Below, piece by piece: positions 1 to 46,200 of a stretch of 64,000 nucleotides of DNA. The position numbers and the translations under genes are program-made. Each line of letters starts with the position of its first letter. Position 1 is the first letter of the stretch. The stretch spans positions 4,154,001 to 4,218,000 of the forward strand of contig JANJGN010000034.1 in NCBI GenBank assembly GCA_026770705.1, in the 5' to 3' direction. Origin of the DNA: Isurus oxyrinchus. Taxonomy: Eukaryota. Below the pieces are notes generated by a model. The model was not told where the DNA came from. It saw only the letters and a list, made by a program, of their open reading frames with translations, and did no database searches.

Positions 1-3000
1 AACATGATGTAGTGCTTCATATCGACAACACCAAAGTCGCTGAAGTCACTGTTAATTCATGAAAGATTTTTTCAATAGCAGAGTTTAAGTCAGGTAAGAG
101 ATTGGGCAAACCATAGATCTAGAGGCAAGAGAGGGAAATAGGCACGACGTTATATTTTGCTCCAAATGGGGTTATGTCTTTGCTCCATATGGATGGCAAT
201 GAGACAAGTGTTTCACAATGTAGTTCGAGCATAATGGATACTAGTTAATGGTGGGTAATATGTTTAAGGTGGAAAGGACATAATATGTTTTTTTAACCTA
301 TTTCACAGCAGCATAATGCAATATTAATTGACTTTTTTGTTTTAAGATGCCTTTTAATATGATGCCATATAAGATTAAGTGAGGGCAGGGCTTGGGGCCA
401 AGAGGTCAAACAAAGGCAGTCCTCGATTGGAGAGGCAGCAACCCAGTTCTTGGTGGAATTCAACAAATTGCGTCGAAATACCATGTTCTGTTTGGAAGGT
501 ACTGAAGTGTCAAGTGTTTGCACTTCCTCATTAAAACTGTCAAATTGAGATAATAGTGTAGGAAGTGAGATGAGACAGCAACTGACAATATAACGAATCG
601 CTGTGGCTGGACGGAAAATTGGCAGGTCTGCAACCAACGGCTGCAAGGACATCTCAAAGGCTCTTGTCTTCTGCGATGGAAAATAAGATCATTTAGCATC
701 CACCGAAAATCAATTAAAATCCAGGTTTGTAGTGAAATGGAAGCTCAGTAATAGCTATATGCTTTAGAGAGTAAAGACGCCAAGGCAGCCTTGCATGGAT
801 CTTTAGAAGATAAGCTAAAATAAATGTATTTTGACAGACATACCCAGGCAGAGAACAACTTACTGGAAACTGCACAATTGTACAGCGCAGCTTTTTGCTC
901 CTTAGCACTTGAGGGTTCATTTTGAAGTCACAAAGGCTTGTGCTTCAAGAATATAGATGTCATAGTAGAAATGCACGCAAGTTGCCAGAAACCCAGCTTA
1001 TTGAAAATCTCGCAAACAGGTGTGTAGGTTATGCTGTTTGAGCAGTGTTTGATTTAGCACCATTCAAATTCAGGGCAGTCCAGAGATTAGCAGCGTTGAG
1101 AACACTCGATGCAACAGAAATGTCCCCAGTGCTATCGTTTGGAAAACAAATAATGGAGCATTTTTAAACGGATAAATATCGAGATGTGAGGAGTAGTTTA
1201 AAGTTGTCCATTCAATTAGTCATTTTGATCTATACATGTCATTGAAAGAGCTGTTTCAGATGATTCAATAATACTTTACCTTCTCTGCGATGACACAAAT
1301 TTGAGTGGGACACATGCAGTCCACATTGATGACAAAAACAGTGCCGGTTTGATTGCTTAACAATTGCAAAATCCTCTACGACTGGAATCTGGATTTTTCC
1401 CGTTGAATTACTCTGAATGTCGCCTCAGAATTCCATGCTTTTAAGTAAGAGATTTAAGTTCTCAAACTGCATTTAATTAGCTTCAACTCAGTCCAGTTCA
1501 TCCTGCTCTTAAAATTCTTGATATATTGTCCACCTCTCTTCTTCAGTAAAAATCTATTAGTCCGCCCACAAAGTCGTTGGGATTACACTTGCTGCTATTC
1601 GAATATAACACAAGTTTCAAAGATCCATTCATCACGCTTCATTCGTTACAGTCGTAACGACCAAAACACCCAAACACCTGATAATCTGCCCTAAATATCA
1701 CGAGATAACTTGATACCAGATCCATCTTGATGACAGTCCTTGAATACAGTTAGGAGGATTCATCATATTATCAATAAAATTCAGAAGAATTCGATACCGT
1801 GTTTTCCTTAGTGTATGAATCTGGAACAGCAATCAACGCCAGTGTAACCAAATATTTCCATCGTTTGTGATATGTGAAACGCTGCTGTATTAGAAAGATG
1901 ATTTAATATATATTCTACCGTTACTAAAAGGCTGATGATTCTCGAGATGTTCCCAAACATCTGCAAAGTTGTTGTAGTTCCCTTTATTTGTGAAATACTG
2001 CCATTGAAGAGCCCAATAATTGTTTCTGAAGTACGAAATGTCTGTAGTTATGTCTCTGAATGTCAGCTTGACATGAGATGACCTGGAACTTCATTAATGT
2101 ACAATTGAGATTACCAATATGTTGTCACGTTGATTTGCATACTGTTAACTCTCTCGGAACTGACAAATTGCCAAAAATTGTCAGCAACATTGTGTAAGCT
2201 TTTATACTTAATTGCATATGAGCAAGCCGTATGAAATTATTCGGAAGGAGTTAGAATTAAAATGCGGGTGAGAGAGACAGACAGACAGAATTAGCTAGCG
2301 AGAGAGGCGGAAGAAAGAGGGAGAGATGGAGAGAGAAGATCGAGTGGCTGATAGAGGTGTAGACAGTAAGAGAGAATGACCTCGCTGTGAAGGACCAACT
2401 TAAAGATGCATATTGATGCCAATAAAGACGCTTTGGCTTTTAATGAATTCGCTGAATAAACAATTTGGCAAGCCACAACGCAACATCAAGTCAAAGCAAA
2501 ATCCTGCATTTTTGTCGGCTGATGTTACTGTGGTGTTGGTTAACCAAAATTAAACGTGGGGCAAATTTCAATATTGATCATTTTTACGCTTTCAGACCTA
2601 AAGTGGAAGGAGGATGATAAAGTCATGCCAGTTTAGATTTAGACAAAAGAATGCATAGAACAATGTTGTCCAAGTATCTGCTTCTAAAGTATACATGGGT
2701 CACATTGTCGAATTACATTCAAGTAAATGGAATGGTGTTAGTGTCAGTCATCAAAGGAAGTGAGTTCGTTCTTCAAAATAATTAACTGAAGGAAATTTCT
2801 GCTCGTCTATTCCACTTAGGAACGTATTTGCACAAATGACAAACAATAATAAAGCAGAGAGAGGTAGACAAGATGTAGAACAGTGCATCATCAACAAATG
2901 TGGGAAGGCACTGCTAATTAATGTAAAGTTTCAGAAAAGCAGTGTGGAAGTTAAATAATGCACTTTACAAACTTTGCCAATTGGTGACAGTGGAGGGAAA

Positions 3001-4078
3001 TGTCCAAGAAGTTCAAGTAAAATCAATGTGTGTGGTATATTTGCAACAACTGGGTAGACAACGAGGCAACAGTTGCCCAATTAAGCTCTAACAGAATGAA
3101 GGCAGGTTGATGGGAGATCAACTGCTTCAGATGCAATAGAGAGAAAGCTTTCTTCTAATTCGTAGCACTGCAAAGTTTTTTTTTCTATGGCACTTTCAAG
3201 CAAAATTGTTATCTGATGGCATCTTAGGTAAAAGTAAAGAACGGCTTAACTCTGATGTTCGGAGGAATAGACATCAATTGGAAGGACAAAATGACATTTG
3301 GTTCTAAGGCAGCTCGTTAAGTTCAAACACCATTTGCTGTTCAAATGGAACCGACACTGAACTGGTTCTTCTTCAATGGTGATGATGTGGCATTTCAGGG
3401 CAACATCACAGAACGAGAGATGAGATCACAATTCAAAATACGACAAAGCAAGAAGTTGCGTGGCCAGCAATTATTGGGAACATGGACTTGGGAAGGGATT
3501 CAAAATTCGGAATTGCAAATGAAGATCCTACAGCACTCCTCGAAAAAACAAACAAATTAAATCCACTTTTGACCTGAAGTAAAGGCACATTAATAGCATG
3601 ATGATGTATAGAGCATGGAAGCCATATTCATGCAAAACAATTTCAGGTTACATGCTACCACTTGTAGGCTTTAATAGAAATTGTGAAATAAAAAAATATC
3701 TTGGTGGCAATTGCACTTTGAACCAGCGCAGCTCCACGCCCCTGAGCTCGTGTGGGTTACCTCTCACTACCAACTATATGGGAGATGCTGTGAAGAACAT
3801 TAAGCAAAAATTTAGAGAAGAATGTAGTCAAGGAATATCTGCAATTATGGGTGACGTTAAGATGGATATAGTTTGGGCATATCAAATTAGTTACAATACC
3901 TTCTTGGAGGAACTGCTGTATTGAAAAAGGGATGCATTTTATGTACCAATACATTGGGGAAAGACCCAGAGAACGGGCTATCCTCCACTGAATAATTGAC
4001 TATCTGGTTGTACGAGTTCCATTGGGAATGAGCGACTATTATATGCTAGAACTATTCATCAAGGTGGAGAGTGATATA

Positions 4079-4377
4079 ACACCAGAATTACCTGGAAAAA
4101 CTCAGCAGATCTGGCAGCATCGGCGGAGAAGAAAAGAGTTGACGTTTTGAGTCCTCATGACCCTTCGACAGAACTTGAGTTCGAGTCCAAGAAAGAATTG
4201 ATATTTCAACTCTTTCTTGGACTCGAACTCAAGTTCTGTCGAAGGGTCATGAGGACTTGAAACGTCAACTCTTTTCTTCTCCACCGATGCTGCCAGACCT
4301 GCTGAGTTTTTCCAGGTAATTCTTTTTTGTTTTTGTCTTGGATTTCCAGCATCCGCAGTTTTTTTTGTTTTTATCTC
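4079..4377. mobile_element. Palindromic Penelope-like terminal-repeat insertion nested in the CR1
   Basis: ~118-bp inverted arms at 4084-4201 and 4206-4323. 14-bp TSD tggagagtgatata at 4065-4078 and 4378-4391. The sequence resembles the Penelope end at 48142-48275. Confidence 0.88.
4232..4270 (+). ncRNA. Minimal type I hammerhead-ribozyme-like motif (mirror copy on the - strand in the left arm)
   Basis: agtt-CTGTCGA-a-gggtc-atgag-gactt-GAAAC-GTC-aact shows stem I, the core boxes, stem II and a minimal stem III. Penelope pLTRs are known to carry minimal hammerheads. Core A6 is U here. Confidence 0.55.
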
Positions 4378-7300: not shown

Positions 7301-7688
7301 TGAAGTCGAACTTTCATTTGATCATAACATTATCTAAAACGTTATTTTAAAAATTGAAAGTGCCATGCTTCATTCGCAAGGGTATTAACTAATAACATGA
7401 CCAAACACTTGATCAGCTGCAAAACCATATCACTAAATGGCATAATGCATGATGTTGACATTTGCACTCCTGGAAGCAGTTTCAGAAGAACACCTTGTTA
7501 TGAGTAGCATTCAGAACAAGTTGGTGCTGCCTTGAAATGTTGTTAAAATGTACCAAATGGCTTCAAGATTTATCTGTGAATTTCAGCTCGACATGAGATG
7601 ACCTGATATGATGCTAAAACTGAATTGAGATATGCGTACGTTATCAGGTTGATTTGGCTATTAACATGTATACTGTTAACTCTCACAG

Positions 7689-7709
7689 AACTGACAGAAT
7701 GCCAGGAAG
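7689..7709 (+). CDS. 21-nt type A micro-exon, (E)LTECQE
   Basis: ctgttaactctcacAG|aactgacagaatgccaggaag|GTaatg. Confidence 0.6.
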
Positions 7710-10700
7710 GTAATGCAATCGTTTTTCCTTCTGATTCCTATGTAATTGCTTAATTGATTTTTGAGCAGGCCACCTGGTATTATTGAGAGAGAGAGAGAGA
7801 GAGAGAAGAGAGAGAGAGGGAGAGATGCTAAGAGAGAGAGAGAGAGCGGGGTCCTATCAACGCAGGATCAACCAGGAGACATGATTGATTGCGAGTGGTG
7901 CCCCAGAGGCTTTCAGCGGAGCCCCATCAAGAACAAATTGGCAAAACAAGCTGTGTCCCACGTTCGATTCTGCTGTCGATGAGCTGGTCAAACAACACGA
8001 AAATAAACATAATGGGAAATATTATTATTTCATTCCACTTAATCATTCAAAGCTAAAGAAGAAAGGGGAAGGATTTAGAATTTTTGATAAAAAACTAATT
8101 TAAATACGATTGGCATGCAACCTTTTTCAATTTTAGCCTTTGGTCACTTTGACAAAAGACGTTCAATTATCTGAAATGCTGTTTGAGCCGGAGGTCAAAG
8201 TCAATGCCTTTTTTCTTTCTATTGATTTATTTCATGAAATTTATGGTCGACCATTTTAGATCTAGGAAACGATTTCCCTGACTAAGAGTCATTGATGAAG
8301 CAGAGTGAGGATGACTTGATGATGAGCTGTGGGTCGTTAACAGCACTGTGGAGAATTGAGTGTTAAAATTACACTGTTTTCGGATAGCAGAACTTAAATC
8401 AAATAAGGAATTGGATGGAATTTAGATCTTCGACGGCATCAGAGGCAACGGTTCATGATTTTGAAGTGGAACCAAACCTTGAAAGCATTTTTGGTACAAC
8501 CGGTTTGGCCGAGATGCAAATGTTGTCCAATTCAGTCGTGCATAATGAACACATGTCAAAGTAAAGTCATTCGTTTAAGTGGCAAACCATATATTTTTTC
8601 CCTATTTCACAGCAGTATGGTGAAATATTTTACAGTTCAAAAATAGTTCGATGTTTAGAAGGAACTGCAGATTCAAATGTTTTTGGTTTCCCTGGGTGCT
8701 GCTGGCTCATTCGAGCTGATTAGAACAGAACATGAGGACAGATAAGAAGCAATCACAGCACAAGCGTCCTAGCATCAACAGGAAATTGGACGGCCTACAC
8801 TCATATGGAACAGTGATATCACAAAGGAGTTCCATCTTCTCCACCGCTAAATTATGTCATGTGGCAACATTCGAAAAAATCAATCAGAAACCTATATTTG
8901 ACCCGGAAAAAGGATGCACATTATATTATACATAAGAATATGGGCACCAGATGACCTTGTATGCAATGAGCAAAATATATTTAATGGAGATTGTGAAACC
9001 GAAAAAAAAGCGTAATGGACACAAGACTCTTTACATTCAGCTTGTATGGCTACACTCCGCTAATCTGAAGCTTTTTGCACAGGAATACAGTGGTCGCAAT
9101 GAAATGTACATTAATACCCAGAGTCCCAGGCAATTCCACATCAATAGGACATGTACCTTACAGATGCTGTTGGAGCAGGGAATGCTTTAGAACCTTTTTT
9201 TAAAAAATATTGGGCAATCTAGAGAACACCAGTCATCAGGGTCACTTGATGGAAAGGAAAAAATACCACTGCAATCGCATGAAAAAGCAACGTGCACTGA
9301 TATCAGATGCTGAGGAGAAGACAGATGTAAGGTGCTAATTTATGGTGTTAATTTCATTTTTTTTATCTTCACTTTCCAACTGAAAGTGCTCTTTCAGATT
9401 ATGCCAATATATTTTTGACGTTCATGGTGCCATATATATGTTTGGACTGATGCCATCTACGTTCATTTATTTCCAACTTTGGAAATATAACAAAATTCTT
9501 ATTAGTAAAAAAATGATGCTATATAGGTTAACAAAGCGTTTAAAAGACTGACTGGCCTTCATTTCCCTTCAACCATCTGTCAATTACTTGCAGTTTGCAT
9601 AGGTTAAAAACTTTCTGACTGAAATTGTGCCCTTGACGAGCCAAGTCGTTATTTCACCTAAACTGAATAGCATTAAGCTGTGGCCATAACTGCCAGCCTT
9701 GACATGAGATGGCCTCTCTCGCCTCAAGGTAGAGTTCAGAAGCATGGCCGGAAAAGTGTGACTGCGGCCTCTTCGCAGTCCCAGTCGTAGCAAATATGTG
9801 ACTCTGGTTAAGAGTCAAATTTCCAATAAAGTGACTTCGGTTTCAACATTTCAGTTAAAGTCTATTACTGGTAACGTATGTTCTAAGGTTTAATGTGGTG
9901 TCCATGCTCTCTAAGTTAGGTAGCTCTTCAAGTATAACCTTTTCGCTTCGAATGTGGAACAGTGATTGATTATCCGATTTGCTACAGTGCCAACTTTTCG
10001 ATTACGGAAGTTTGACTGCCTTCCAACTATCCCCGTTCCCGACTCTAGCCGAAAATTAAACTTTTCGTCCAGGCTGGAACTTTGCTGGTACTGTTAAGAG
10101 CTATCTAATTTCCAGTTAATTTTCTATTACCCTCACGTAAGGTAACATCAAGAATGTAGACCAAACAATTGAACTTTCGCTTTCTTCTTAACAGCAAATT
10201 ATATTTCAACTGCTTGTGTTGTATTCCATCAAAGGCTGCAACGTTGCTTCTCGAATCGAAATCTGCCTATCGACGAAATCCAGTCTTTAACCCCTACTAT
10301 AATTTTATCTCATTTGTCGTCATGAAAAAAGACCGTTTGGACACGTGTTAAAATATTACTTTTAACCGTTTGGAAATATAAAATGAACAATTCCCCCTTT
10401 CCATGTTAAACAGATGAACCTAATTCAACTGAATTTTTGAAACCGAAGGCACCTTAATGGAAACTTCACTATTGGCCTAAGTACATTCATGTACTTCAGC
10501 TGATCTGTTTTCCATCCGATATTCCAAAAGCATGTGTTTCAGATATTCTAGCCTCATACCAGATATCCAGAATCATTTCCAGAATCCCAGATAATTCAGA
10601 ATCTCGAAAAATGCGATCAATGATATACTGTTTCCACAGTTTTTGATTATTCAATATGAAAGTGCAGGGCAATTAAGACTGCAGCAGTCTTCAGGAAATC

Positions 10701-13700
10701 TTATATTTTGGAAATTCTCCCGCTGCTACAGTTTGAAAAAGGAGAGGTCTCAGATAAAAGAACCTGATGAAAATGCTGATAAGAGGTGGTGACTTATGTT
10801 GTCAATTAGCTTAGGTATTTTGATCAACCCACACAAATTGAAAGAACTGTTTCTCTTGATGCAATTATACTATTCCCAGTGTACTGTCATAAACATTTGA
10901 GTGGTACTTAGGCAAGCAGTCTTCAAATAAGCGTCATGAAGTACTAATTGCATAACGATTGCAACGTCCTAGAATATGAAAGGAAAGATCAAGATGTCCA
11001 TCTAGAATTGTCCTGCTGAATTACATTAGATTTGGTGTGCCTTGATGTCAATAAAGATGGACCAGATCTCAAGTCTCTTTTAATTCTCGTCAATTTTTAA
11101 CATCATCCTGCCTACAACACATAGGAAAATTTGGTAATTTAATTTCTAACATAAAATTATATTGTTCCGACCTTGTAGTCAGGATTTATTTTCATGATAA
11201 GAGGAACTTCTAAAATAATTTCGAAAATTCATCTATCAAGCTAAAAATGAAAGACTATTTTCAAATAATATAGCCAAGCATGTGATCATCTGCACAAATA
11301 TTGCACGTGGTGAATTAATGTGAGGCAATGATTGATTAAGCACCTGAAATTAGTTTGGGAACATTCAACACATTATGAATGACATTCAGAACAAGCTGAT
11401 GCTGTTGCTTTCCTTAGTCTATGATAATGTAACAGCAAACAATGTCACTACCGATTTTTTTCGGCGTTCTGACATATATCAAATGCAGCACTAGGGGAAT
11501 TATGTCATTATAAAAAAAATCTAAGTTGATAAAAAAGTTGTTAATTTCCCATATTCTTCCACACAGCTGTCGATTTGATGATTTTTTCTGACCTTTAAAT
11601 CATTCTTTCTGAAAGCCAAAAGTTGAAAAGCCACAGTATTGTTTCTGTTCTAAATAGGTTGAAGCTGTGTCTGCGAATGTCAGCTTGACATGAGAAGGCC
11701 TGCTATCTCAGCAAAGTGGAGAAGAGACATTTAGACAGTGCCCCGTTGTTTTGGATATTCAGGTGCATAGTGGTAACTACAACGGAACTGGCAAAATACC
11801 AAGAAATTAAAGCAAAACCTTTGCCTTTCCAAATATTTTTGCTTCATCTTTGAGCAATTCGTATAGCATTATTGAGGTAGAGACAAAGACATATATAGAG
11901 ATAGATCAGGGGAATGGACGGAAGGGGACAGATAAAGCCCTATCAGTGAAGCATCAATCGGGAGACCCGACTGATCGCAATTGCTCACGTTTTGCATTTT
12001 AGCAAAGTCTCTTGTAAAATTGTAAAATACTGAAATAATGTTCTTGATGAGCTAAATTCTTGTTACATTTGTATCAAATGGCTTGAAGCTCTTCTTGCGA
12101 ATGTGAGCTTGATAAGATATTGCCTGAGATCTCGAATAAGTAGCGTTGACATAGCTTTTTTTTTTGTCGGGATTAATTGGATGTTCAGATGTTTACTGTT
12201 AACTTCTCACAGATCTGACGACATGCCAGGAAGGTAAGACCGTAAAATTTATCGCAGCGCAGCATCTCATCTTGGCAGTTCCCCGCGTTGTTTTCTGCTT
12301 TCGATGCCATGGTAATTGTTGATTGGAAGGTAAATGTGAAGAGAAATGCATATTTCTAAATGCCATTCAACTTTTCAGAGCTAAAGAAGGAAGGAAAAGA
12401 TAAAAACAGGACTCAAATGTCATTTAACTCGCTTCAACGCATTTCATGATCCACTTGCCTTTATTTTTTCTGAGTACTTGGCGAATTCCTTTTTAAGTTA
12501 CAATTCAAGTCTTTCGACCCTGAAGTCAGAATTTTATTTCTTGTTCAGAGAAATGCTACAAAAATTCTGAAAAACTTTCAGAAGAAATGAATGATGTTAA
12601 AAGCAAAATACTACGTATTTTGGAAGTATGAGACAGAAACAAGCAATGCTCCAAAAACAAAATAGGCCTTACGCATCTGTGGAGAAAGAAAATGAGCTAA
12701 ACTTTCCAGTCAACACAACTCTTGATAATGCCAGTTTATGATGGTGTTTATCTTGAAGGATGGTGCTATAACAGCAAGCAAAGCAATTATAATAAAGTAC
12801 AAACAACACTTGTTATATATCAAATACCGCACTCACATAAATATGATGTAGCATGCCTTGCTAAAGGGGAAGAGATTGCGTTGTGGCATTGTGCTGGGCT
12901 AATAATCTAAATACCCTCCGTAATGTTCTGGGGACCTGTGTTCGAATTTTGCCATGGCAATGGCAGAATTTCAATTCAATAGAGATTTGGAATTGAAAGT
13001 CTAATGATAGTCATTGAATCATTGTCAATTCGTTTAAAAACTCATCTGTTACAAACATGTCCTTTTGTGGTCTGGCCTGCATGTAGCTCCAGACGAACGA
13101 CAATGCCATAAGCTCTTAAATGTCTTCTGAACAAGGGCAATTAGGGATGGAAAATAAATTCTGGCCTAACCAGTGACGTCCAGGTCACGTACAATAAATT
13201 GTGTGATCAAGCAGCGGATGATCGCCAGATTCTTCCAAACATCTGTCTTGGTGTTGAAGATTCTTCCTTTGGAATTGCTGAAAAACTGTTCTTGACGGAC
13301 CAACTCATTGTTACATTTGCATCAGGTGGCTTGATGTTGTGCCTGCAAATGCCAGCTTGACAAGGCATAGCCTGATATCTCGACAAAGTAGCGTTGAAAT
13401 ATATATTTTTTTTGTTGGGATACTTGGATATTAAGAAGTATACTGTTAACTTCTCACAGAACTGACGAGATTCGAGGAAGGTAAGACTGTAAAATTTATC
13501 ACAGTGTGGCATCTCATCACAGCTTTTCCCGCGCTGTTTTCTGCTTTCGATGCTCTGGTCATGGTTGAATGGAAGGTAAACGTGAAGAGAAATACAATTT
13601 TAAATGCTGTTCAACTTTTCAGAGCTAAATAGGGAAGGAAAAGATAAAAACAGGACACATATCTCATTTAATTTGCTTTATCGCTTTTCTTGATCCACCT

Positions 13701-25199: not shown

Positions 25200-25234
<35 letters not shown>

Positions 25235-31200: not shown

Positions 31201-34200
31201 GGAGATCGTAAAAGGAGACAGATCGATTTGACAGGCAACAAGACAGTCTTTGACAGAATGCATAACATGAAGTTGAAATACCATTTGCTGTTTAGAAAGA
31301 AATTAAGCGTTAGTTGTTTACACTTCTTTGATGCTGCTGTCTCATTTGAAGATATTAGCACAGAATTTGAGATTAGACAGAAATTAACATTATAACTAAC
31401 GTCCGAGAATGGGAAGGGAATTCAACGATCTGCAATGATCTTGAACAGCGTCATTTGGAAGGTGTTCAATGTTGCGTAGTTGAAAAAGCGATCCTATAGC
31501 AAATTTTAAAAAAAAAATAATCAGAAATCGGCATTTCTATTGAAAAAGGATATTCTGTTTTAACTTGATGATTGGAAGAGTATGGATGCCAGTCAACAAA
31601 CTATGAAACAACAATATAGGGTAGAAATAATAGGGTTCAGCAGCGATTGTGAAATAGAAAACAAATCAGTGAAACGTGAATTTTGACCAGCCGTTTCATG
31701 CCCTTCAGCTCGTGTGGTTCAATTCTATATTCCAAATGCCATGTGCTTCAGCAATTCAGGAGTCGTACCCGAAATGCACATGAATGGCCAGAAACCCAGA
31801 AAATTCTGAAGCTCGCAAACATGTGTCTAGGATATACGATCTGATCAGTGCATGATTTAACACCAGTCAAATTCAGGACAGCCGAGAAAGCAGAAGAAGT
31901 TAGGAACTTTTATCTCTTGGACACCCTCCGAATGCAATCGTTTGAAAGATAGAGGGCACTTATTTTATAAAAGGATTTAGTTGAAGATTTATGTTGTTAA
32001 TTAAATTGTTATCTTTATCTGCACACTCCAATTGAAAGAACAGTTCCAAAAGTGCCATAAGATTATTTTTACGATGATAATTATTTCATTGAGTCTCATG
32101 CATTCCAAGCCCATACGACGTCTGTTTAGGATTAATTGCATAACGATTGCAATGTCCCAGAATATGAAGCGATTGAGCTAGGCCTACTTCCAGATTTGTC
32201 CGTGAAAATAAATATCAGGTATGATTCCCAATGCTGAGCCATTAGCTTTTCCGAACTCTCTACAGGAACATTTTGACAGAACACAGCAGAACGTGAAAAC
32301 GATTTCCCATGTTTATTTCTGCTTCTGACATTGTGCTAATATATCATCTGAAAATAGATGTTGGGAGAAATACTTTTAATGTCCTTTTAATTCATCTAGA
32401 ATTAATTAAGATGGGAGGAGGTAAGGACACTGTAATTCGTGAAAAAAAAAAAACAAATGCATTAAATAAAGCCGGCAAGCAAACTTCTTCAATATTATGC
32501 ATTTGTCACCTTGACAAGTCATATTCCAGTAACTGGAATAGTTTTTGCGTTGGAGATCAAAAGTAAGGCTTTTACTCTTCCAAATGAAAAAAAAAACAGA
32601 AAATTTCTGCGTTCAATGTCCGATGTATGAAACTCCTCCTCCAACTGGCAAGCAGTGATGCAGCAGACAGAGAGCCGAAAGTGATGTAAGATGTAAATTG
32701 TCAAAATGTTGATGAAGTGACGGCTAATTTTATTAACAGACCATAAATCAGATAAGGGTTTGGAACAAGTTTCGAAAGTCGGAGGCATTAGAAGTAAAGC
32801 TGCATGGAATAGAAAGGAAACCTATGCTTGTCATATTTGTGCAACATCTGGGTGGACAAAGAAGCGACAGTTGCATAATTTAACTTCGAGCGTAATGAAG
32901 GAGGAGCATATTTTAAACATGAATAATGGAAAATTCTTTATATAGAGTAATATAACATTTTGTGACATTTAACTGAACCCTTTAGAATTAAAGTATGCGA
33001 GTTACAATAGTTATTAGGGTGTGATGCCTGGAATTAGAAGGAAGAAGGATATCTATGGGAGAAGCAACAACAGAGTCTTTTGTTCAATTTAGCACTTGGG
33101 ATGAAGTGTTTGCATATCCGTGATGGAACTGGCTCATTTGAGAATAATAGTGCTGGTCTTGAGATAAGGAAGTAATTATTAATACAGCGAACTTTCGAGG
33201 CTGGAGGGGAATTGGACGGTCTGCAATTATCGGAAACAGGGGCGGTTTGCAGTGGTCCAATTGTCTCTAATCATATTGAGCTCCAATAGCATTAACTGAA
33301 TAAATATTCAAAAATCCACATTTGATGAGGAGAGAATGCATAGCAAAATGATTTGGAATCACCGACTATTGAAGCATGTCTACATAGCAGCAAAGTTTGC
33401 CTGTAAAGAATATAACAGGGATTGTGAAACAGAAAACACCTTAGGGGAGATGGACGCTTGCCCAGCGTGGCTCATACCCTTCTGCTCATTTGGGTTCACT
33501 CCTACATTTGAAATGTATACAGGTCAGTAATGCAGGCTTCAAAGCTTAAAGGCAATCGAATTACAAGGACGTTGTAACTTTCAGAATTCCGAAATCACCT
33601 CTTTAGGATAAGTTACTTGAGCAGTGCTTGACTTAGCAATATAGAGAACAACAGTCATCAGGATTCTGAACCCTTGGAAAGGCTCCTGCTGCCATCGTTT
33701 GAAAAACAAATGACACAGATAAAATGAACTGATTTAAACAAATCCAGTAAAGTGGTGAGCATTTATGCTGTAAAGGAATTTATTTTTTTTGATCTACAAA
33801 CACCAATTTGACGAGCTGTTTAAAATGATGCCACAATTCCTTCCCACGCGTATGATGAAGAATAATGAATTGGGAGGTATGCAGCCTACCTTCATCTAAC
33901 AGCAGTTCAGGGATAATTTGCTAATGATCGCAAAGTCCTGGGTTATGAATGAGTCATCTTGACCTACCTATGAACTTATCCCTTATGAAATGCATTGTAT
34001 ACGATTCAGAATCTCTTGATGCTAATAAATATTCCACGGTTCAAATCAAATTTAAATGGCTTCAATATTATTTACGATCCCACTGCATTTAAAACTTTGG
34101 AGGCCGTTGACGCCCTCACTTGTAAATTAACACACAATTATTCTCACTTAAAGTCGGGATTTAAGTTGTTGATCACGAGATCAATGGCATTTTCTCCCAA

Positions 34201-37200
34201 AACCTTTTTTTTTTAAATAACAATGCTTTATTCAAAAGATTCGCAACAAACAAAATGACCAATCGTTTGATCATGTACGCAAATATAGCACGAGAAGACT
34301 GTATGTTAGCTGCTGATTGGCTACACTATATGAAGCTTAAGAACATTTGCCTCATGACGACTAACATTCATGATAATTTGATGTTATTATTTGTTTTGAT
34401 GCATGACACCTAAAACAGCAACAACGCCAATGTACCAACATATTTCCACATTTCCTACTATATCAAAAGCTCTTTTTGAGTAGATGTGATGTCATGCAGA
34501 TGGCAAAGACGATTAAAGTGATGATGATATTCCAGTTTCTTCCAACCATCTTTCTTATTCTTTTAGTTATCTGCCTTTGAATCATTTCTGATTCAAATTG
34601 TGTCCTTGAATACCCTTAATAGATCTGCAAGCAAATTGCTTGAAGCCAAGTCAGTGAAAGTCAGCGTGTCATGAGGTGAACTAAGGCCTCCTCAATGTGC
34701 TGTTGAAAAATGGATTTGAAGCAAGTATGATTTAGAAATTCACCAGTCTCCTGTGACCTCTTACGGAACTGACAAAGTGCCAGGAATGTAAGATAGAAAT
34801 ATGTGACATTTGCATTTCAATCTAATAGATTTGTTTTCGCACCCCACATGATATTATTGAGAGAGGGAGAGAAAGATAAAGAGGGAAAGAGAAAGAGAGA
34901 GCGTGAGAGAGAGAGAGAGAGATGAGAGGGGGAGGGAGTGAGAGAGAGAAAATAGGTGTGGGGGGCCGAGAGAGAAAGAGAGGGTGAGGGAGGCCATCAC
35001 AATTAAGGAATAATTCATATATTAGAAAAGTTCGATTTATAATGCTTTAGTAACAAAGTAGCCATATGTAAAGTGATGATTCATGTCGTTATGGAAATAA
35101 ATTATTTTAACCTAAGCACGTAAATTGAAAGAGTAGCTTCAGGTGATGCCATAAAGTTTTTCCACGTGTACAGTGACAAATTCTTTACTGGGTCACATGC
35201 AGTTTACTTTCTTATAACGGCAGTTGTGGGCTAATTATATAACGGTTGCAAAGCCCCACAATACGTATTGAGTGAGCTATACCTACATCTTGTTTTGACC
35301 CTTTTGTATTACACTGACTGTCGACTCATAAAGTCTTGTTGTTAAGTCGTGCCAACTATCATCATGGTCTCCCTGAGTTTAAAACTTCCATCCACTTTGC
35401 TGTCTCGTTTTTAGCCAAAAAATCAAATGTTCCAAACCTGAAATCGGGATTTGGGTTGCTGATAACATAATCTACGAAAGCACGTCAACGTTCTATTTGT
35501 CAATCTTCTTTTGAAGCCTAATAACGAATAATAGTGCCTAACAACTGCTCACCTTCATAGATATTGCACTCGGTAACTTGATACCAGAAGCTAATTAGTC
35601 ACACACCTTGAAGTAGTTAGGGAAAATTCAGTTTATTATGAATACAAGTAGGTTGGGAGCTTAGCCTAAATAGCCAAGTGGTTATGGTACTGGGTTTGTA
35701 ACCCCAAAATCAAGAGTTCAAATCTCACAATGGCAAACTATGAAACAATGTAAATTCATCTGAAACAGATGGAAACGGGTTTGTACTCGAAAGAGTTACA
35801 AGTAGGTTGGGCTTGGCCCAAATAGCCAAGTGGTTATGGTACTGGGTTTGTAACCCCAAGATCAAGAGTTCAAATCTCACAATGGGAAATAATGTAACTT
35901 CATCTGAAACAGGATTGTACTCGAAAGAGTTACAAATAGTTGTGATATATTGCTTGGCCTAAATAGCCAAGTGGTTATGGTACTGGGTTTGTAACCCCAA
36001 GATCAAGAGTTCAAATCTCATAAAAGCGAAATAATGTAACTTCATTGGAAACAGGTTTGTACTCGAAAGAGTTGCAAGTAGGTTGGGCTTGGCATAAATA
36101 GACAAGTGGTTATGGTACTGGGTTTGTAAGCCCCAGATCAAGAGTTCAAATCTCACAATGGCAAAATATGAAACAATGTAACTTCATCTGATACAGGTTT
36201 ATACTCGAAAAAGTTACAAATAATTGTGATATATTGCTTAGCCTAAGTAGCCAAGTGGTTATGGTACTGGGTATGTAACCCCAAGATCAAGAGTTCAAAT
36301 CTCATATTGGCAAAACTATGAAATAATGTAACTTCATTGGAAACAGGTTTGTACTCGAAAGAGTTACAAGTAGGTTGGGCTTGGCCTAAATAGCCAAGTG
36401 GTTATGGTACTGGGTTTGTAACCCCAAGATCAAAGAGTTCAAATCTCATAATGGCAAACTATGAAACTATGTAACTTCATCTGAATAGGAACAGACTGAA
36501 ACGGGTTTGAACTCGAAAGAGTTACAAGTAGGTTGGAAGGCTTGGCCCAAATAGCCAAGTGGTTATGGTACTGGGTTTGTAAATGCAAGATCAAGAGATG
36601 GAATCTCACAATGGCTAACTATGAAACAATGTGACCTCTGGGTCAGTGAATGTGGAAACTGCACCTGGAAACAGTCTGGGGACAGCTAGAGTTGCCTGAT
36701 TGGCTGCTAATCCTATTGGAGTATTAATAACAGGTCCGTTCACACCTGGGTATTAAATGCTCCTAATTATTCTAATATCTGAAGGTATGTCCCCCAAGCT
36801 CCCATGCGAGCTTGGCCTAAATAGCTAAGTGGTTATGGTACTGGGCTTGTAACCCCAAGATCAAGAGTTCAAACCTCACAATGGGAATCAATGTAACTTC
36901 AACTGAATAGGAACAGATGGAAACGTGTTTGTACTCAAAAGAATTACAGCATTAACAGAGCTCACTTTGGTACATAGGCTCTTACATTCTAACATACCTA
37001 ACAAGAAGAATGCGCTTTTGGCCTAAATAGCCAAGTGGTTATGGTACTGGGTTTGTAACCCGAAGATCAAGAGTTCAAATCTCACAAAGGCAAACTATGA
37101 AACAATGTAAGTTCATCTGAAACAGATCGAAATGGGTTTGTACTCGAAGGAGTTACAAGTAGGTTGCAAGGCTTGGCCTAAATAGCAACTGGTTATGGTA

Positions 37201-40200
37201 CTGGGCTTGTAACCCCAAGATCAAGAGTTTAAATCTCACCATGGCAAATTATGAAACAATGTAATTTTATCTGAATAGGAACAGATGGAAACGTGTGTGT
37301 ACTTGAAAGAGTTACAAGTAGGTTGTAGTTTCTCTTTTGTTGATTTTATAACAGCAAATAACGCCATTTTGCCTAAATACTTCAAACAATTGACATTTAT
37401 CAACTTCACCATTAGGTGAAATATAATGCCATATATCCTACTATAGCAAAACTGAAGTTGGCTATAATCCAGATTCTTCAAACCACCTTATTGTTGTTGA
37501 CGTTTCCTGCCATTGAATCATTTCTGAAGGTAATAATGTCCCTAAAAACCTAAATTATTGTTAGATTTGTACCAAATGACTTGGAACTTTTTCTGAGAAT
37601 GGTTGTTTGATATGAGATGGCCTGATAGCTCGTCAAAGAAGATATGAAATGTGGATTTGTTTTCAGCGTGATTTGAATAGTAATATGGATATAAACACAG
37701 AAGATGTTAACACTCACAGGACTGAAAAAAAGTGCCAGGAGTGTAAGGCAGGAACGTTGCGGTACATTTCTGTGAAAGTCCAGCAGGAAGAGAGATATGG
37801 CTACGAATGCGGTTGTGAAGGATTTTGGTGAACCCACCCTAAATTCAATATGACCTTATGCAGTGAGAAGTCTCGCAAAAGCTAGATCCCACTTTTGTTT
37901 CGGTGTTAATTGCTCATCAACATTTCATGAAGAGGGAAAGATATTTTTTGCCTTTTTTCACCATGAAGAGGCAAAGAAGAAGGACAACGGCAATGCCAGA
38001 AATTTCCTTATAAAAGCAAGGGCATAAAAAACAGTTGACGAGCTATCTTTTTCAGATTGATCTATGAGTGCCTTTCAAAAATGATGACCCGGTATCTCGA
38101 ATATTGTTTGTGATGTAGGCCAAGGACAATGTGTTTGATCCTCCTAATAACTAATTGGATGACATTTCTCCTCGTCAACATCGGATGAAGGCAAGTATTC
38201 TCCCAAATGAGAACTCATGACGAAGTAGAGAGAGAGATGGACGCGATGTACAACGTAAGTGTGTATTATTGTAATTTACAGAATGTTTTTGAAAATCAGA
38301 GCATAAATTGGGAAGGGCATTTGAACATTTCATAATATCGGAGCTATCAGTGCATCAACTTGAAAAGTAAACAATGCTTTTGATACTATTGCTCCTACTG
38401 GAAGGGTGATAATGCAATGAAATATCCGCTGTCAAATATGTCAGGAGCATAAGAATGAAACGTTGAAACATGAACATATTTTTATTGTGCAACATTGAGA
38501 ATTGTTTACCTATTTAACAGCAGCATAATATTTCATATTTTGCTAGTTTGTCACTAAGCCTTTTAGTATGATTTCAAGAGAGATACAAGGATAGAAGGGC
38601 TTGAAGTCTGGAGTTCCTAGAAACACAGACATCGATTGCAGCGGCAACAACAATCTTGGAATCTATGGAATTATGTTTGATGTTGCATTTAGAAGGGACT
38701 GAGATGCCAGGTACCTGATTTTCCTTGGTAATGCTGGCTCAGGTGAGGGTAATAACGCAGAACTTTAGATGAGATATCGGTTCATATTCCTACGCACATA
38801 GAAGCCTGGAGAGAAAATGTGATCTTCTGCAATTATCAGGAACAGGGAGCTAAGGAATATTTCATCCCTCTGTAATAGTAAAGCAGATTTATTTTTTGTT
38901 GATAAATTTCAGTAAGTCAGTCAAAAATCCATATATGATGCGATTAGAATGCACAGGTAGATCTACTTGACTTAGAGAGTGCTGATTCCCAGTCAACCTT
39001 GCATCAGACATTAGAATACCTGTTACTAGTAAAGTAGTTTAATCAATATTGTGAAAGCTTTAAGGATTTGATGAAAACTGGGAGTCCTGAGCAGCGTAGC
39101 TTCGTGCAGTGCTGTTTGCATGGCGTTCCTTTGATAAACCAAAGGCTTCTGATTCACGAATTTGGATGTCATAACTGAAATTAATATGAATTAGCATAAA
39201 GACAGAACATTCAGAATCCTCAATACAAATATCTTGCATAAACTGTTTGAGGAGTTTTTGATTTGGAAACATTAAAATTAAGAGCAATTTATAACAGAGC
39301 AGTCATTAAGGAAAGAGATTGCTTGGATACGCACTGACCTCCATTGTTTGATAAACATATGAGGCAGATTTAAGGAGCTGAAAATTATTTGGAAGTGAGG
39401 CGAGGTTTTAAGCTGTTGACAAAATATGTTACTTTGATGAGTGCACAAAGATCGAAAGAGCATTTTTGATGATGCCATATTACTTTTTGCAATTGTAAAG
39501 CGCCCAATACTTGATTGTGATGCAGGCATTCTCACTGAAAATAAGCGTGGTGTAGGGACAATTACATAGCTATTGCTAAGTCCCAGGATCTGAAACGATT
39601 GAGCTGGTCCTCCCTTTCGTTCTGTCCCAGCAGAATTGCACTGCCTTGGATTCAGAACGACTTGATTTTAACAGCGTTATTCCAGTTTTCATATCCCAAT
39701 TAATTGATTCCAAATTATTGAAGGCCTTCCTGCATTTAAAAGCTTTGATTACTTTGCCGTCTGTTTTCCAACTTAAAACTCAATTATTCCCTTCTTGGAG
39801 CTGGGAATTCAATAGCTGATAAAGTAATCTGCGATATTTACTCTCCAAAAACTTCTAAAACCTATTCATCTTTTGTTGCCTGAAAGTCGCTTAAATAAAA
39901 ACTATGCCTAAAGATCTTATTACCTTTACTAATTTCACTCTTGAGGACTTGATGCTAAATGTAGGTTTTCACAGCGCTTGAAGCAGTTCATGAAGATTGA
40001 CCTTATTATGAATAACATTAGGTACAACCTCATGTTCTTCTTTAGCCTGATGGTTGGTATTAAAAGAAATGAATGCCACTTTACCTAAATATTTCCAACA
40101 TGTCGCATATATCAAACGCTGCATTGGCAGCAAGGTGATGTATCGTGCATTACTCAATAACTCGGTCTTGGTTCCCTAGATGCATTCAAATATCTTTCTT

Positions 40201-43200
40201 GTTGATGACGTTCTCGCCTTTGTTTTTTTTATTTCTGACTGAACCACTGTCCTTGAAGAGCAACTCATCCTTCTATATTAAAATAAAAAAAGTAAGAATG
40301 GCTTGATGCAACTCCACAGGACAAGAGCTGGCCTAATAACTCATCAAAGTAGAGTTGAACTCTAGGTTTGATGTCAGTATATTCTGGCTAATCATTATTA
40401 AGCTGACAACTCTCATTCCCCAGGTAAAGTGCCAGGAATTCAAAGCGGTAACTTTCTGTTTGCAATGCTAACTGCAATTTTTGAGGCAGCCTCATGGCCG
40501 AGAGAGTGCGAGAAAGCGAGAGAGAGGGAAAGGGAGAGAGAGGGAGAGAGACAGAGCAAGAAAGAGAGAGAGAGAGAGAAAGAGAGAGACAGAGAGATAG
40601 GGAAATTTCCAGCAAGGCAATCTTCATCAAGATTTAAATATGTATCTCCCAAACATTTTGCCAAAGCAGCATACCGGGTTCGGCTTTGTTTTCAAAGTGG
40701 TGGTCATTCTCAATTCCAGAATCAAAACATATACTTAAATAATTGTTTATCCCTTTAATGACGCAGCACTGACAAAAATGGCAGGATGAAATTTCAGAAC
40801 TGCGGTACTTGAAGCAAACGCATCTTTCTGGATTGGTGAATAAGCAGTCTCAGATATAGGGGTCAGTCATGTTGATGAAGGCATTAACGTACGTGGAATA
40901 ATACTTGGGCCGTCAGTCAAATTCATTGACGTTGACCTTCCGAATTAATAATGGGAGGACCTCTTTCCTCATGCTTTTTTTTTAGATTGATAAAGTTGTC
41001 TCCCTACGGGAAGTGGCGTTGGTGCTGTTGTTTACACCGTTCATTTCAATGTGCATCTTGAAGTAATCTAATTGATGATACATAAGCGATACGTGTAAAT
41101 GGGATAGACGAATGGATCAAAATCAGATATTTGAAGGTGCAAGCACTATTGTGTAGAATTTAGTGGAGAAACTATTTTTTTGGTGACATTTAGCCTATGA
41201 CTTGTTAGGTCACAGTTCAACAATTTGGCTCTTGCCAAACTCAGTCCGAACAGGCACGTGGAGGATGATGATGTGGTAATGTGGAAGAAGGATTTGGTAC
41301 GACGATGAAGGTGTAATACTGCTACTCAAAGAAATGCTTTTAAAACTGAGGCAGTGGGATTGATCTGTTGGAAAGAATACAAAGCTTGCCTTCTAGAATA
41401 TAAGAATGCATTGAGGGCCACAACAGAATTAAATGCAAAAGACAGTGATTTGAGTGGGTTAATTAACATTTTCAGGGAGGTCACGTGTTTTTTTCGACGG
41501 TTGATGAATGAAGATTTAATCATAAGTACATCGTACATGAGTGGAAAGCTAAAAATAATTTAGTGTCCGATGGAGCGATGGATTAGCTTGATTGTCCATT
41601 TTCTTTGATAAAAATGGGAGGCGGATTGGACTTCACTTTATTGGAGTAGTAGGTTCTATAATACCTACCTAGAAATCAAATATTCCATCATTTTTTATGC
41701 ATATCCGATGTTCAGTTTAAATTAACTAATTTAGAGAATACAAGTCACCTGGCAAATTAACACCAGCATTGCAGTGGTATTACAATTCAGAAGGCATTAT
41801 GATGCAAACCATTCCGTATTGGAAGCTGAGGCGTCTCACGAGCGCAGCCTCATGCAACGCTATTTTTATTGGCTCCACTCGGTTTGACAACAAGTCCTGA
41901 TTCAGAAAGAGAAGCTTCAAAATTGTTATCGATCCAAAATTCAGAAAGTCCAGGGAATCCGAAGCAGATGGACGTTTCCACAAACGTTTAGTTTAGCAAG
42001 ATGGAGTGGGGCAATCTTTTTGGATTATGAACACTCAAAATTTGATACCACTTGATAAAAACGTTAGGCAGATTTAAGATTAGCACCGCCACAAACGTTC
42101 AACATATTAACAATAGCAGTGAGAAGGCGTTGATTTTCCTGATCCTCCCATGTGATGATTCTATAACATATTTGAGCAAAATAACACAAAGCATGTGAAG
42201 AGGGTACTATGAATCCAGCGACCGCTGGAGCAATGAATTCGATCGACTTTATCTCTGAAAACAGGAAGAGAGAGATTGCCTTCAGCCACTGTAGTAGAAC
42301 AATAAGTCCTGAAACACATTTCGATAAATCAAGTTTACAACCAAGATTGATGCATATACAATACCGAGAAAAAGATGATAATTTAGAGAGTTGCATAAAT
42401 AAGTATTTAATATCGCTGTACATGCTACCTTTATTTCACTTTCAAAGAGATTGTGACACAGAACACACTATAAAGGAAAGCAAAATGACGTGCACTGCCT
42501 CATTGCTTCTACAGCTTCCATGCCAATTCGCTTTGCCAATGGCTCAAGAATGAAGGCTTTGTAACAATTTGAACTTCCAAAAAAATCCAGACATTGACAT
42601 AAACGCCGCCAAATACGTAGGGTGCATTGCATAGGCATTTTTGCTATCTTAGGAAGAGATAGGGGAGCTGCCATCAGGGAATGTGGTCATTTGGAATTAC
42701 GCACATTTGTATGGCCTGATAAAGACTTACACAGATTTAAGCTAAGTCGTCCCTGAAGAAGCTTCACAATTTACCACATGATAAAAGTAGCATTCAGAAA
42801 ACACCAACTTTCTTGTTCATCTAATTCGAAGTTTCTATAACAGCAAGCAATGTCTTCGATCTGAAACAATGCCAACGTTTCACATTCCTCAAAAAACTGG
42901 CAACAGGAGAAATATAATGCAATCTGAATTGCTCACGTGATTGAGATACTGAGGATATTGGGTACTTCTCACAATTTTTATGTTAAATTGGGAACTGGGT
43001 GCTGGTGTTGATTTTGTTATTAATAAAAAAACGCGGCGAGAAAGGAAGAGAGAGCACGAAGAGATAGAGGCGGTTTTCGAGAGAGCAGGCTGAAAGAGAA
43101 TGGGAGAGAGGGATAATCGCGGTGATGGATGGAACAGAAGTGGACATTTAAAGCGAAGAATTGGCTTTTGCCTTTAACCTCAGCCTCTTCCTCATTGTTT

Positions 43201-46200
43201 TGAACTTACTCTGTTCGAGGTCTCATCATGCCACTACCCTTACCTTTTTATTCTTCTCACTTCTGTATTCAATCTTCAAACAAATATGAATGAGGAAGGA
43301 CATATTTTTCATCCCTCGCACCACGTACAAATAATTAAGAAATCACAAAGTAATTTTTTTAAAAAAATCAGTGGTTTAATAAAACTTATAATTCAGGCTT
43401 GGAGAACTTTGAGCTCTGATTCAGCTTGGGGCCATGCACATTTTGAAGAAAGTTCTGAGCTTCTGTTACATTTTGCTTGTTTCGGAGGTCAAAAGCAGTG
43501 TGTTGTGCGTTCTTCAGAGCTAATTGAAGGAAGATTATTCATATCAAATTCAAACGTTGGAAGTTGTTCTCCCAATATACCAGCCAGAAACAAATTGAAG
43601 GAGTTGGACGACATGGAATCTATTGCTCGGCAACATAGATGCGGTTGAAGAAAATGTTATATCAGAGGGGATTATGCAAACCTAAGTAAAATCAGTATTC
43701 TAAAGGTATTTATTTAACTATCTGAAAAGAGGTTGAAAAATATTCGGAAAGTAAACTTCCCTGAGAAAGACCTGACATAGACCAAATAGCTGAACGTACT
43801 CATTTTTCATAAATATCTTTCATATTGATTATATGATTGTCTTTGCTCAGTATCAAGTTAGCCACTATTCCAGGAATTTGATTCTTGCAGCGCTGGCTAT
43901 ACATGAAAAAAAATCTTCTGAAAGTACTTATAAATGGCTGGTGATCATGGCAGGAACTTTGTAAATTAAAGCATCTCCCTCTTTTCTTGCCTCTAGAAAG
44001 GACAGTACTGAAGACGGATGTAGCATTATTAAGTGAGCCGTAGTTTCTCCAAATTATTGCTGCGTGCATCATCTCACTATCATTTGTCAAACTTATAAGG
44101 GTCTGGCACATACAAGGTTATGCTGGGTGCATTGCTCTTACAATGATGTCTGAAGAAAGTGCGAAGGGGTCAATGTGCTGTTGCACAGAAACGTGTAAAG
44201 ATATGAGCATGGAGAGAGCTCCAAATCTTTACTCTACCCGTGGAAACATTTCTGCTCGCTAAAGAAGACTTACATTTAACCAACAGAATAAAGCGAAAAA
44301 AACTTTTAAAAGACAAAATGTCATGCGACCTGCACAAGAATTGCTTGGGCAATTTTCAGGCTTGAACTGAAAGTGGAAAGTAACATTTCTGCCACAAAAT
44401 TGCCAAACAATAGCATATCCAATAACAGAGAATAGCAACATCACCCCTTTACAATCAGTCGTATTACCATTGCTAAATCCAACATGATCAGCATACTTGG
44501 GCAGGGTGGGGGTTGCTGCTTTTGGTTAGAAAATCAACTGGACCACCGCATAAATATTTTGTCTGCATGGGAAGGGAAGATCAATGGTTGGGAATTCTGC
44601 GATGATCGTGCTGGCAAGCCATAATGCTGAGGTCAGGAGCGTGACGGGTACTGTCCGCTTCCCTAGACGATTGAGGCTCCAACACACACACAAACCCCGA
44701 CACTGTCCCTGACAAAGCAGAACCATTGATTGGCACCCATCTAAAACTTTTAGCTTTTATGTCCTCCACCACCGATCACAGTAGAAGCAGAATGTGCCAC
44801 AGACAAAATGCATTACAGCTCAGAAAGACTTCATCGATGGCCCTAAAGAGTCCCGTGACCTGTACTGCCTTGAACAACAGGAGCACCAGATGCATCAGAA
44901 CACCACCACATTAAATTTACCCATCATGCCAAAAACATTATGACATGGAACTATATTGCCGTCCCATCACTCTCACTGAGTCAAAATCCTGGAATTCACT
45001 TCCTAATAATGCTATGGATGCATAACCATCACATGAGTTGCACTGGATTGTGAACGCATTCAGCACCACCTTACAAAGGCTGTGAAGCAAAGGCAAGAAA
45101 TGCTGGCACAGCGACTGACACCCAAATCACATTAAAGAATAACAAGGATAATAGCAATAAATATACCATCTCACGCATAGCCCTCGAACCTGAAAACTAA
45201 ATTTGGAATGCGACTTATGGCATGTCTTGTGTCAGAGGATTTTTTTTTATTATTATTTAACTTAACTGCATTCCTTGTGAAGCCATTTCACCAATTTCAT
45301 CAATTTCAAATTGCTCATAGCTGTGACGTTCATTGAGACACTTTGCAATGCATCAATGGATTTGGTATTCTGGAAAACGAACTGCATCAGATAAAAAGCC
45401 ATTGGAAATCTCAATTTACACGTCCATTCCTGCTAATCTGAGTCATGAACTTTTTGAAGTCATTTCGAAAATTAAAATATCAAATGGCTAATCTCATTGT
45501 GAAATTTGTGCGCTCCTCAGCTATATATTTGTCATTAGGGTTGTGCAAATTGTTCTGATGGTTATGAAGAACGCACGTTATAGCAACATGCGAGTTGGCC
45601 ATTCAGACGATCGAGTCATTTCAGCAATTTCAGCTAATTTACAGCACGGTTCCATTTTTAGTTCTTCTCAGGTCTTTGTGTCTCACATCCATTTATTGAT
45701 GGTTGAAATATGTATCGTGCAGGAGCAATACATATCCATACAGTTTGGAAATTGAAGAGGTTCTGAACCTATTACCGAATTACATGACCATTGGACTAAT
45801 GAGGTATTCCTGTGTCTCAGGCTCCTCGAAAAGTGAAGGGAAAGCGATCTGATCCACAATACCATCAGCTGTTATCGAAATACTAAAACGACATTGAAAG
45901 TGCATTTAACCTTTAATATCTCATAATACACAAGCACAGATACCATAAACTTACCCCACAACATAATTCTTGAAAAATATGTTACCACCTGGTGACAATA
46001 ACTGCACTTCACTCAATGATACTGCGACTTTCCATTGTCTGAGGAGCTCAGAAATATACAGGTCGTTCCGGATGGGTGCAAATTCAGGAGTTGGATACCA
46101 ATATCAATTCTTCACGTCTTTAAATTAGAGCAACCTAGCTAAAAATGCGAATATTCCAATATCTATTTGGATTAAAAGTTGTATCTGAGTCGGTACTATA

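What the first reader, a model, noticed from the sequence alone, without database searches (positions are those of the whole stretch)
2158..43349. Exon birth-and-death: over half of the micro-exon copies are killed by splice-site point changes
Seen: 15 of 28 slots lack AG or GT but mostly keep the 21-nt length (cag>cgg three times, cag>cat twice, gt>at repeatedly). Inference: 21-nt symmetric exons can be gained, lost or skipped without a frameshift, so single mutations or unequal crossover would change tail length by whole heptads. This could produce allelic and isoform diversity, as in BG tails.
Basis: partly seen in the sequence, partly recalled or inferred. Interest (0 to 1): 0.7.

Follow-up and report, generated by a model that had tools for sequence, protein, structure and literature searches.

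The report
Dead micro-exons in giant shark gene
About half of the copied 21-base exons in this stretch have lost a splice signal and are likely fossil exons inside a very large, apparently still-working shark gene for a long helical rod; the pattern of losses suggests that an exon can be dropped on its own when it encodes exactly one seven-residue helical repeat.

Summary
The array extends 83 kb upstream (34 of 75 slots usable). It lies in an inferred ~810-kb gene of 21/27/36-nt phase-1 exons ending in an open B30.2/SPRY exon. That exon is constrained against a related species (dN/dS ~0.4), so this is not a whole-gene pseudogene. The three cgg copies are independent losses (AU p=0.0002); the four gt>at copies are two events. 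New here: in the gene's equally old 36/27-nt array, 74% of slots survive and losses keep the 36/27 alternation (21 residues; p≈0.0007 in the conservative test), whereas neighbouring 21-nt exons die independently. Not supported: a BG-type tail (no Ig exon found) and present-day allelic length diversity (long duplicates ≤81% identical, older than the species split). No RNA was available.

The parts
2158..2178 (+). A slot, dead (cgg acceptor, donor lost)
2596..2616 (+). B slot, dead (gt>at, independent event)
7689..7709 (+). A exon, intact (LTECQE)
8051..8071 (+). B slot, dead (caa / ga)
11786..11806 (+). A slot, dead (cgg / tt)
12030..17154 (+). Youngest tandem block of ~1.2-kb A+B units (about 80% identical): intact A exons at 12213, 13460, 14687, 15868, 17117; dead B slots at 12379, 13623, 14853, 16032 form one clade (one inherited loss)
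17483..17503 (+). B exon, intact (LKHKGD)
22609..22622 (+). A slot, dead (cat, deletion across the donor)
22995..23015 (+). B slot, donor lost or shifted by one base
25045..25065 (+). A slot, dead by a single change (cat)
25459..25479 (+). B exon, intact (LKTKEE)
27880..27900 (+). A exon, intact (LTKCQQ)
28307..28327 (+). B exon, intact (LTKKEE)
32400..32420 (+). B exon, intact (LIKMGG)
34767..34787 (+). A slot, dead by a single change (cgg)
37720..37742 (+). A slot, AG and GT present but 23 nt (frameshifting)
37969..37989 (+). B slot with GC donor; status uncertain
40419..40439 (+). A slot, dead (all four splice bases changed)
40767..40787 (+). Weak B slot, dead (ga)
   Evidence: (E 0.11)
43329..43349 (+).
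57795..57821 (+). 27-nt phase-1 exon candidate (QELAAKET); the gene continues beyond the window to a B30.2 exon at G000:C34:4816512-4817024 (L098:8512-9024)

Best explanation
The window holds 27 duplicated 21-nt exon slots, 15 without AG or GT; these are likely pseudo-exons left by old tandem duplication inside an apparently functional ~810-kb cartilaginous-fish gene predicted to encode a long coiled-coil rod ending in a B30.2/SPRY domain. Shown: the slots, their lesions, independent origins of the repeated lesions, the open terminal SPRY exon and its constraint between species. Inferred mechanism: intron-exon units were duplicated in tandem long ago. Each 21-nt exon is in phase and encodes exactly one heptad, so a splice-site mutation makes the spliceosome skip it at no cost to frame or helical register; it then decays as intron. 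Selection keeps a subset (about 45%) rather than each copy. Where exons are 36 and 27 nt, a single loss would keep the frame but break the register, so losses there are rarer and tend to be balanced (21 residues = 3 heptads). Inferred and untested: one transcript across 810 kb, actual skipping of dead slots and inclusion of intact ones, rod length as the selected property, and the protein's location (a signal peptide is possible).
For: 75 slots over 124 kb, 34 usable (one transposon-interrupted slot at -44683 dropped). More slots have intact sites than a neutral simulation on the flank trees gives: A 19 of 38 vs mean 6.0 (0 of 600 runs); B 14 of 33 vs 4.0 (P 0.005). Exon bodies show pN/pS of 0.49 (A) and 0.34 (B) in intact slots. 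Over 208 slots in both arrays, stops or frameshifts occur in 3 of 135 site-intact vs 18 of 73 site-lost slots (p 7e-7). cgg clade rejected (p-AU 0.0002); at-donors are 2 events; at least 9 live/dead changes on each tree. B30.2 exon vs organism B (three runs, same 15 differences): 7 synonymous, 8 nonsynonymous, no stop or gap; 2.9% vs 6.2% in window DNA (p 0.0005); dN below the flank rate (p 0.00015), dS equal to it (p 0.86). Register control: the two arrays have similar flank identity (0.635-0.66), but 98 of 133 vs 34 of 75 slots are usable (p 8e-5). Same-size neighbours among usable 36/27 exons: 7 of 93 vs null 21 (0 of 20000); after removing inherited-dead slot types, 7 vs 17 (P 0.0006-0.0008). 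The D and G 36-nt slots are never both usable in 14 units (p 0.03). Neighbouring A and B exons die independently (p 0.67).
Against: No transcript evidence for any exon of this gene. The neutral simulation loses significance if branch lengths are overestimated (scale 0.7: P 0.02 and 0.08; scale 0.5: P 0.21 and 0.36). Within the 21-nt array alone, the stop/frameshift contrast is not significant (1 of 35 vs 6 of 40, p 0.11), nor is pN/pS of live vs dead slots (p 0.32); dN vs dS in B30.2 alone gives p 0.08. The constrained B30.2 exon is ~620 kb from the window, so its link to these exons rests on strand, phase and the absence of another B30.2 match between them. Profiles seeded on intact exons under-count badly decayed slots. 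The register test uses related units and a regime split chosen after seeing the data. The first coding exon was not identified.
Confidence: 0.72

Rival explanations
1. The 21-nt array is a wholly dead or skipped segment (or the gene is a pseudogene), and the intact-looking slots are simply those not yet hit.
For: With branch lengths halved, the intact counts fit neutral decay. Live and dead slots do not differ significantly in pN/pS or disruptions within this array. Several 'intact' donors score weakly.
Against: Excess of intact slots at face-value branch lengths; clades of intact copies with conserved sites, e.g. five A exons at 80% flank identity whose B partners are all dead; Leu/Ile/Val at the first heptad position in 18 of 18 intact A exons vs Leu in 11 of 15 dead; constrained B30.2 exon and a strong live/dead contrast downstream.
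Confidence: 0.12
2. One reading: the array is a currently active generator of allelic and isoform length diversity, by single splice mutations and unequal crossover, as in BG tails.
For: 22 of 40 dead slots have a single splice-base change. Two apparent rescues by a new in-frame site (-5409, 27 nt; +321157, 42 nt). A 7.45-kb 99.2%-identical duplication in the downstream array. Predicted isoforms of distant relatives differ by 6-, 7- or 9-residue blocks. BG exon number varies between alleles (PMC5938342, passages).
Against: Long duplicates in the 21-nt array are at most 80.6% identical, far older than the split from organism B (6.2%). Organism B contigs align colinearly over all 16 slots between 7000 and 25146, though with contig breaks. 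A same-species contig spans 13139-16515 in one piece (possibly the assembly's own sample). The 99.2% duplication is close to the 0.64% same-species difference and may be a false haplotype duplication.
Confidence: 0.15
3. The exons encode the cytoplasmic tail of a BG/butyrophilin type I membrane protein whose Ig and transmembrane exons were missed.
For: Same exon size and phase as BG tails (PMC5938342, PMC4046983, passages); terminal 27-nt exon plus B30.2 as in butyrophilins.
Against: No Ig Pfam match in 140 plus-strand ORFs of 75 aa or more from -220 kb to -83 kb, nor in 132 ORFs of 60 aa or more before the next paralog. A minus-strand paralog's exons begin by about -215 to -227 kb, which limits the space. 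Six database relatives match only SPRY/PRY. Frequent Cys in the rod.
Confidence: 0.06

Closest known systems
Chicken BG genes (PMC5938342 and PMC4046983, passages read; PMC8813856, abstract only)
   Same: Coiled coil written in many phase-1 21-nt exons, one heptad each; exon number varies between genes (13-36) and alleles; evolves by duplication and deletion.
   Different: BG has IgV and transmembrane exons and no B30.2. Its variation is by unequal crossover and intron read-through; the passages read report no pseudogenes and mention no dead tail exons. Here units are 1-5 kb, old and diverged, half are dead, and the gene is ~810 kb with 27/36-nt exons and a B30.2 end.
Butyrophilins (PMC12841164, passages; PMC5938342, passages)
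   Same: Heptad repeats of variable number followed by B30.2; present in cartilaginous fishes.
   Different: IgV, IgC and transmembrane domain define them and were not found here; they have few heptads, against well over 130 usable micro-exons here.
Arthropod Dscam exon arrays (PMC3236188, passages)
   Same: Birth-and-death evolution of tandemly duplicated exons within one gene, with old paralog divergence and little recent conversion.
   Different: Dscam exons are mutually exclusive alternatives for Ig domains; here the exons appear additive, so losses would change rod length.
Unstudied chondrichthyan coiled-coil + B30.2 models (XP_055510696.1 skate, XP_069775384.1 electric ray, XP_042191566.1 chimaera, XP_038668997.1 and GCB73088.1 catsharks)
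   Same: B30.2 36-61% identical, short coiled-coil N-terminal part, only SPRY/PRY Pfam hits; predicted isoforms differ by micro-exon-sized blocks.
   Different: Models are 190-450 aa and carry TRIM-like names without RING or B-box; much shorter than the rod inferred here.

Membership tests
Chicken BG | 21-nt phase-1 heptad exons | tested here: met
Chicken BG | N-terminal IgV exon | tested here: not met
   No Ig Pfam match in 140 ORFs or 132 ORFs in the paralog; 78 shorter ORFs listed were not scanned
Chicken BG | Transmembrane exon before the heptads | tested here: inconclusive
   The 111-nt exon begins with a short hydrophobic run; first coding exon not identified
Chicken BG | No B30.2 domain | tested here: not met
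   Open SPRY exon, E 2.9e-14; same-transcript link inferred
Chicken BG | Allelic variation in exon number | tested here: inconclusive
   Only one same-species sample listed; no copy difference seen where contigs span
Butyrophilin | IgV-IgC-transmembrane | tested here: not met
Butyrophilin | C-terminal B30.2 after heptad exons | tested here: met
TRIM | RING and B-box | tested here: not met
   No motif or Pfam match 5' of the micro-exons; none in six relatives
Birth-and-death exon array (Dscam-like) | Tandem paralogous exons with independent losses and surviving constrained copies | tested here: met
Birth-and-death exon array (Dscam-like) | Mutually exclusive splicing | not testable with these tools
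   No RNA holder listed

The most novel reading that the evidence does not exclude
Exon death in this giant gene is filtered by coiled-coil register rather than reading frame: one-heptad (21-nt) exons are free modules that die singly, while 36- and 27-nt exons survive or die so that 21-residue pairs are kept. The fossil exons thus record selection on the geometry of a very long, possibly secreted, Cys-rich rod carrying B30.2, and rod length may still vary between alleles, species and isoforms.
Probability: 0.45. Interest if true: 0.68.

Novelty: new variant of a known kind. Interest (0 to 1): 0.47.

Why it matters
Pseudo-exons after tandem exon duplication are ordinary. What is unusual is one gene holding more than 200 alignable slots with many independent losses and two exon architectures of similar age. 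That makes it a natural experiment separating frame constraint from helical-register constraint on exon loss. It also warns that gene models of this poorly annotated cartilaginous-fish family must tell live from fossil micro-exons.

Tried and rejected
No RNA holder was listed for the B30.2 exon. One guessed-RNA run laid on window 7000-26000 gave only repeat-derived pieces. Neither bears on expression. Genome-wide PRY and V-set searches scored only 150 candidates each and missed the divergent B30.2 exon, which a motif scan found. Pfam on 112 downstream ORFs (+43 to +164 kb) gave only a weak GDSL-like hit and an RT fragment; +164 to +556 kb had a motif scan only. Searches for the first coding exon gave unconfirmed candidates, the best at -172539, not conserved in the paralog. 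A one-clade test for the two in-window cat copies was not decisive (p-AU 0.20). Protein searches with the B30.2 exon or the skate protein found no long full-length ortholog; the atlas gave generic SPRY clusters. Paper searches (listings only unless stated) found no description of this family or of register-coupled exon loss; the library lacks most subscription papers, and no supplements were read. Rejected: length retention as a sign of selection; cgg as an inherited lesion.
Full report
Coordinates are window coordinates; negative or >64000 values extend along G000:C34, where the window is 4154001-4218000.

Observation. A splice-site scan showed 21-nt AG...GT segments with an open phase-1 frame as the commonest strong class. 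Iterated profiles found 38 type A and 38 type B slots from -83.5 kb to +40.8 kb. One B slot interrupted by an insertion (-44683) was dropped from counts. In the window, 11 of 27 are intact, one is 23 nt and 15 lack AG or GT. The 28th slot is a weak remnant without AG. Array-wide, 35 of 75 slots have no change in the four splice bases, 22 have one, and 18 have two to four. Length retention in 35 of 40 dead slots is about what the indel rate predicts.

Host gene. Phase-1 exons of 21, 27 and 36 nt continue from -143.7 kb to +657.9 kb. They are preceded by a 111-nt exon at -148463 and followed by an open exon at +662.5 kb matching SPRY (E 2.9e-14). Five related B30.2 exons lie on this contig between 2.7 and 7.5 Mb. 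A second paralog starts at +705 kb with matching first exons, and a minus-strand paralog lies head to head. No Ig domain matched in 140 ORFs 5' of the array (one boundary-crossing ORF and 78 ORFs under 75 aa were not scanned) or in 132 ORFs before the second paralog. Database relatives are from sharks, skate, ray and chimaera and match only SPRY/PRY. The skate model begins with a hydrophobic leader that looks like a signal peptide by eye; the ray and chimaera models do not. A single 810-kb transcript is inferred, not shown. Earlier notes of this scan describe the same family and this gene; I reached the structure before reading them.

Is the gene alive? Three runs of organism B differ from the B30.2 exon at the same 15 listed sites, 7 synonymous and 8 nonsynonymous, with no stop or gap. 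That is 2.9% against 6.2% over 16.6 kb of window DNA (p 0.0005). dS matches the flank rate and dN is below it (p 0.00015); dN against dS alone gives p 0.08. Across both arrays, disruptions sit in 3 of 135 site-intact and 18 of 73 site-lost slots, but the signal comes from the downstream array; the 21-nt array alone gives p 0.11. A neutral simulation on flank trees predicts 6 of 38 and 4 of 33 intact slots against 19 and 14 seen (four divergent B slots were left out of that tree). The excess fades if branch lengths are halved. Dead slots also keep some coding signal (pN/pS 0.42 and 0.72 to consensus), as expected if they were used for part of their history; this measure has no transition correction.

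History. Trees were built from flanks with the exon and splice bases removed. The three cgg copies fall apart and a single clade is rejected (p-AU 0.0002). The two cat copies are unresolved. Three of four gt>at donors belong to the 1.2-kb tandem block, where intact A exons were copied with an already dead B passenger. Most dead copies are long branches from an old radiation. The best long self-matches among the units are 80.6% or less, so births predate the split from organism B. Its contigs align in order over the 16 slots between 7000 and 25146, with breaks. Ongoing unequal crossover among such diverged units is unlikely (general knowledge, not tested).

Register control. The gene's 36/27-nt array (about +273 to +490 kb) has similar flank divergence but 98 of 133 usable slots against 34 of 75. 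C36 and E27 slots survive at about 85%. D36 and G36, two 36-nt slots in one unit, survive at about 50% and are never both usable in 14 units. Usable exons alternate 36/27 with 7 breaks in 93 steps, against 21 when deaths are shuffled within slot type, and against 17 after removing the inherited-dead types (P about 0.0007, a post hoc split). Neighbouring A and B exons show no coupling (p 0.67). All these exons keep the frame when skipped, but only the 21-nt exon or a 36+27 pair keeps the heptad register. An earlier scan note found the pairing rule only partly held in another genome; I did not test that gene.

Comparison. BG tails use the same exon size and phase and vary in exon number (PMC5938342, PMC4046983; passages), but BG has IgV and a membrane span and lacks B30.2. 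Butyrophilins have B30.2 but also Ig domains (PMC12841164; passages). Exon birth-and-death is known from Dscam (PMC3236188; passages). Predicted isoforms of distant relatives differ by 6, 7 or 9 residues; that such models usually rest on RNA-seq is recalled, not checked.

Verdict. The finding is real and the gene is probably alive. The dead copies are old pseudo-exons, a known kind of outcome. The interesting part is the apparent register filter on which exons may die. Present-day allelic and isoform diversity remains untested.

Noticed in passing
window 35643-37326: Tandem array of about ten ~150-nt units inserted in the exon array; six match the Rfam tRNA model (23.8-32.9 bits) though ARAGORN calls none. 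Likely decayed tRNA or tRNA-derived SINE copies.
   Followed up: partly
L018:4591 region (window coordinate -5409): Apparent rescue: the original donor is GC and a strong new GT lies 6 nt downstream, giving an in-frame 27-nt exon. A similar case at +321157 has a new AG 6 nt upstream (42 nt).
   Followed up: partly
21-nt array, -66 kb to +41 kb: GT>TT donor losses are unexpectedly common: 8 A slots needing at least 6 changes, plus 2 B slots, against two GT>AT events (rough p 0.0008). Not seen in the 36/27 array. Unexplained.
   Followed up: partly
G000:C34 about 4625475-4640371 (window coordinates +471475 to +486371): 7.45-kb tandem duplication at 99.2% identity carrying a 27- and a 36-nt exon; a recent birth or a false haplotype duplication.
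   Followed up: no
window coordinate +432107: 36-nt slot with AG and GT intact but two in-frame stops: possible poison exon or silent remnant.
   Followed up: no
G000:C34 2.7-7.5 Mb: Five related B30.2 exons spaced about 0.8-1.6 Mb apart, two on the minus strand, head to head with this gene.
   Followed up: partly
window 4084-4323: 118-nt arms, 96% complementary, 4 nt apart: two head-to-head copies of a common short repeat.
   Followed up: no
window 53892-54446: Decayed coiled-coil-like reading frame, probably a transposon fragment; no Pfam match.
   Followed up: partly
G000:C21 82-118 Mb: Very large cluster of PRY/SPRY exons, more than 100 matches.
   Followed up: no
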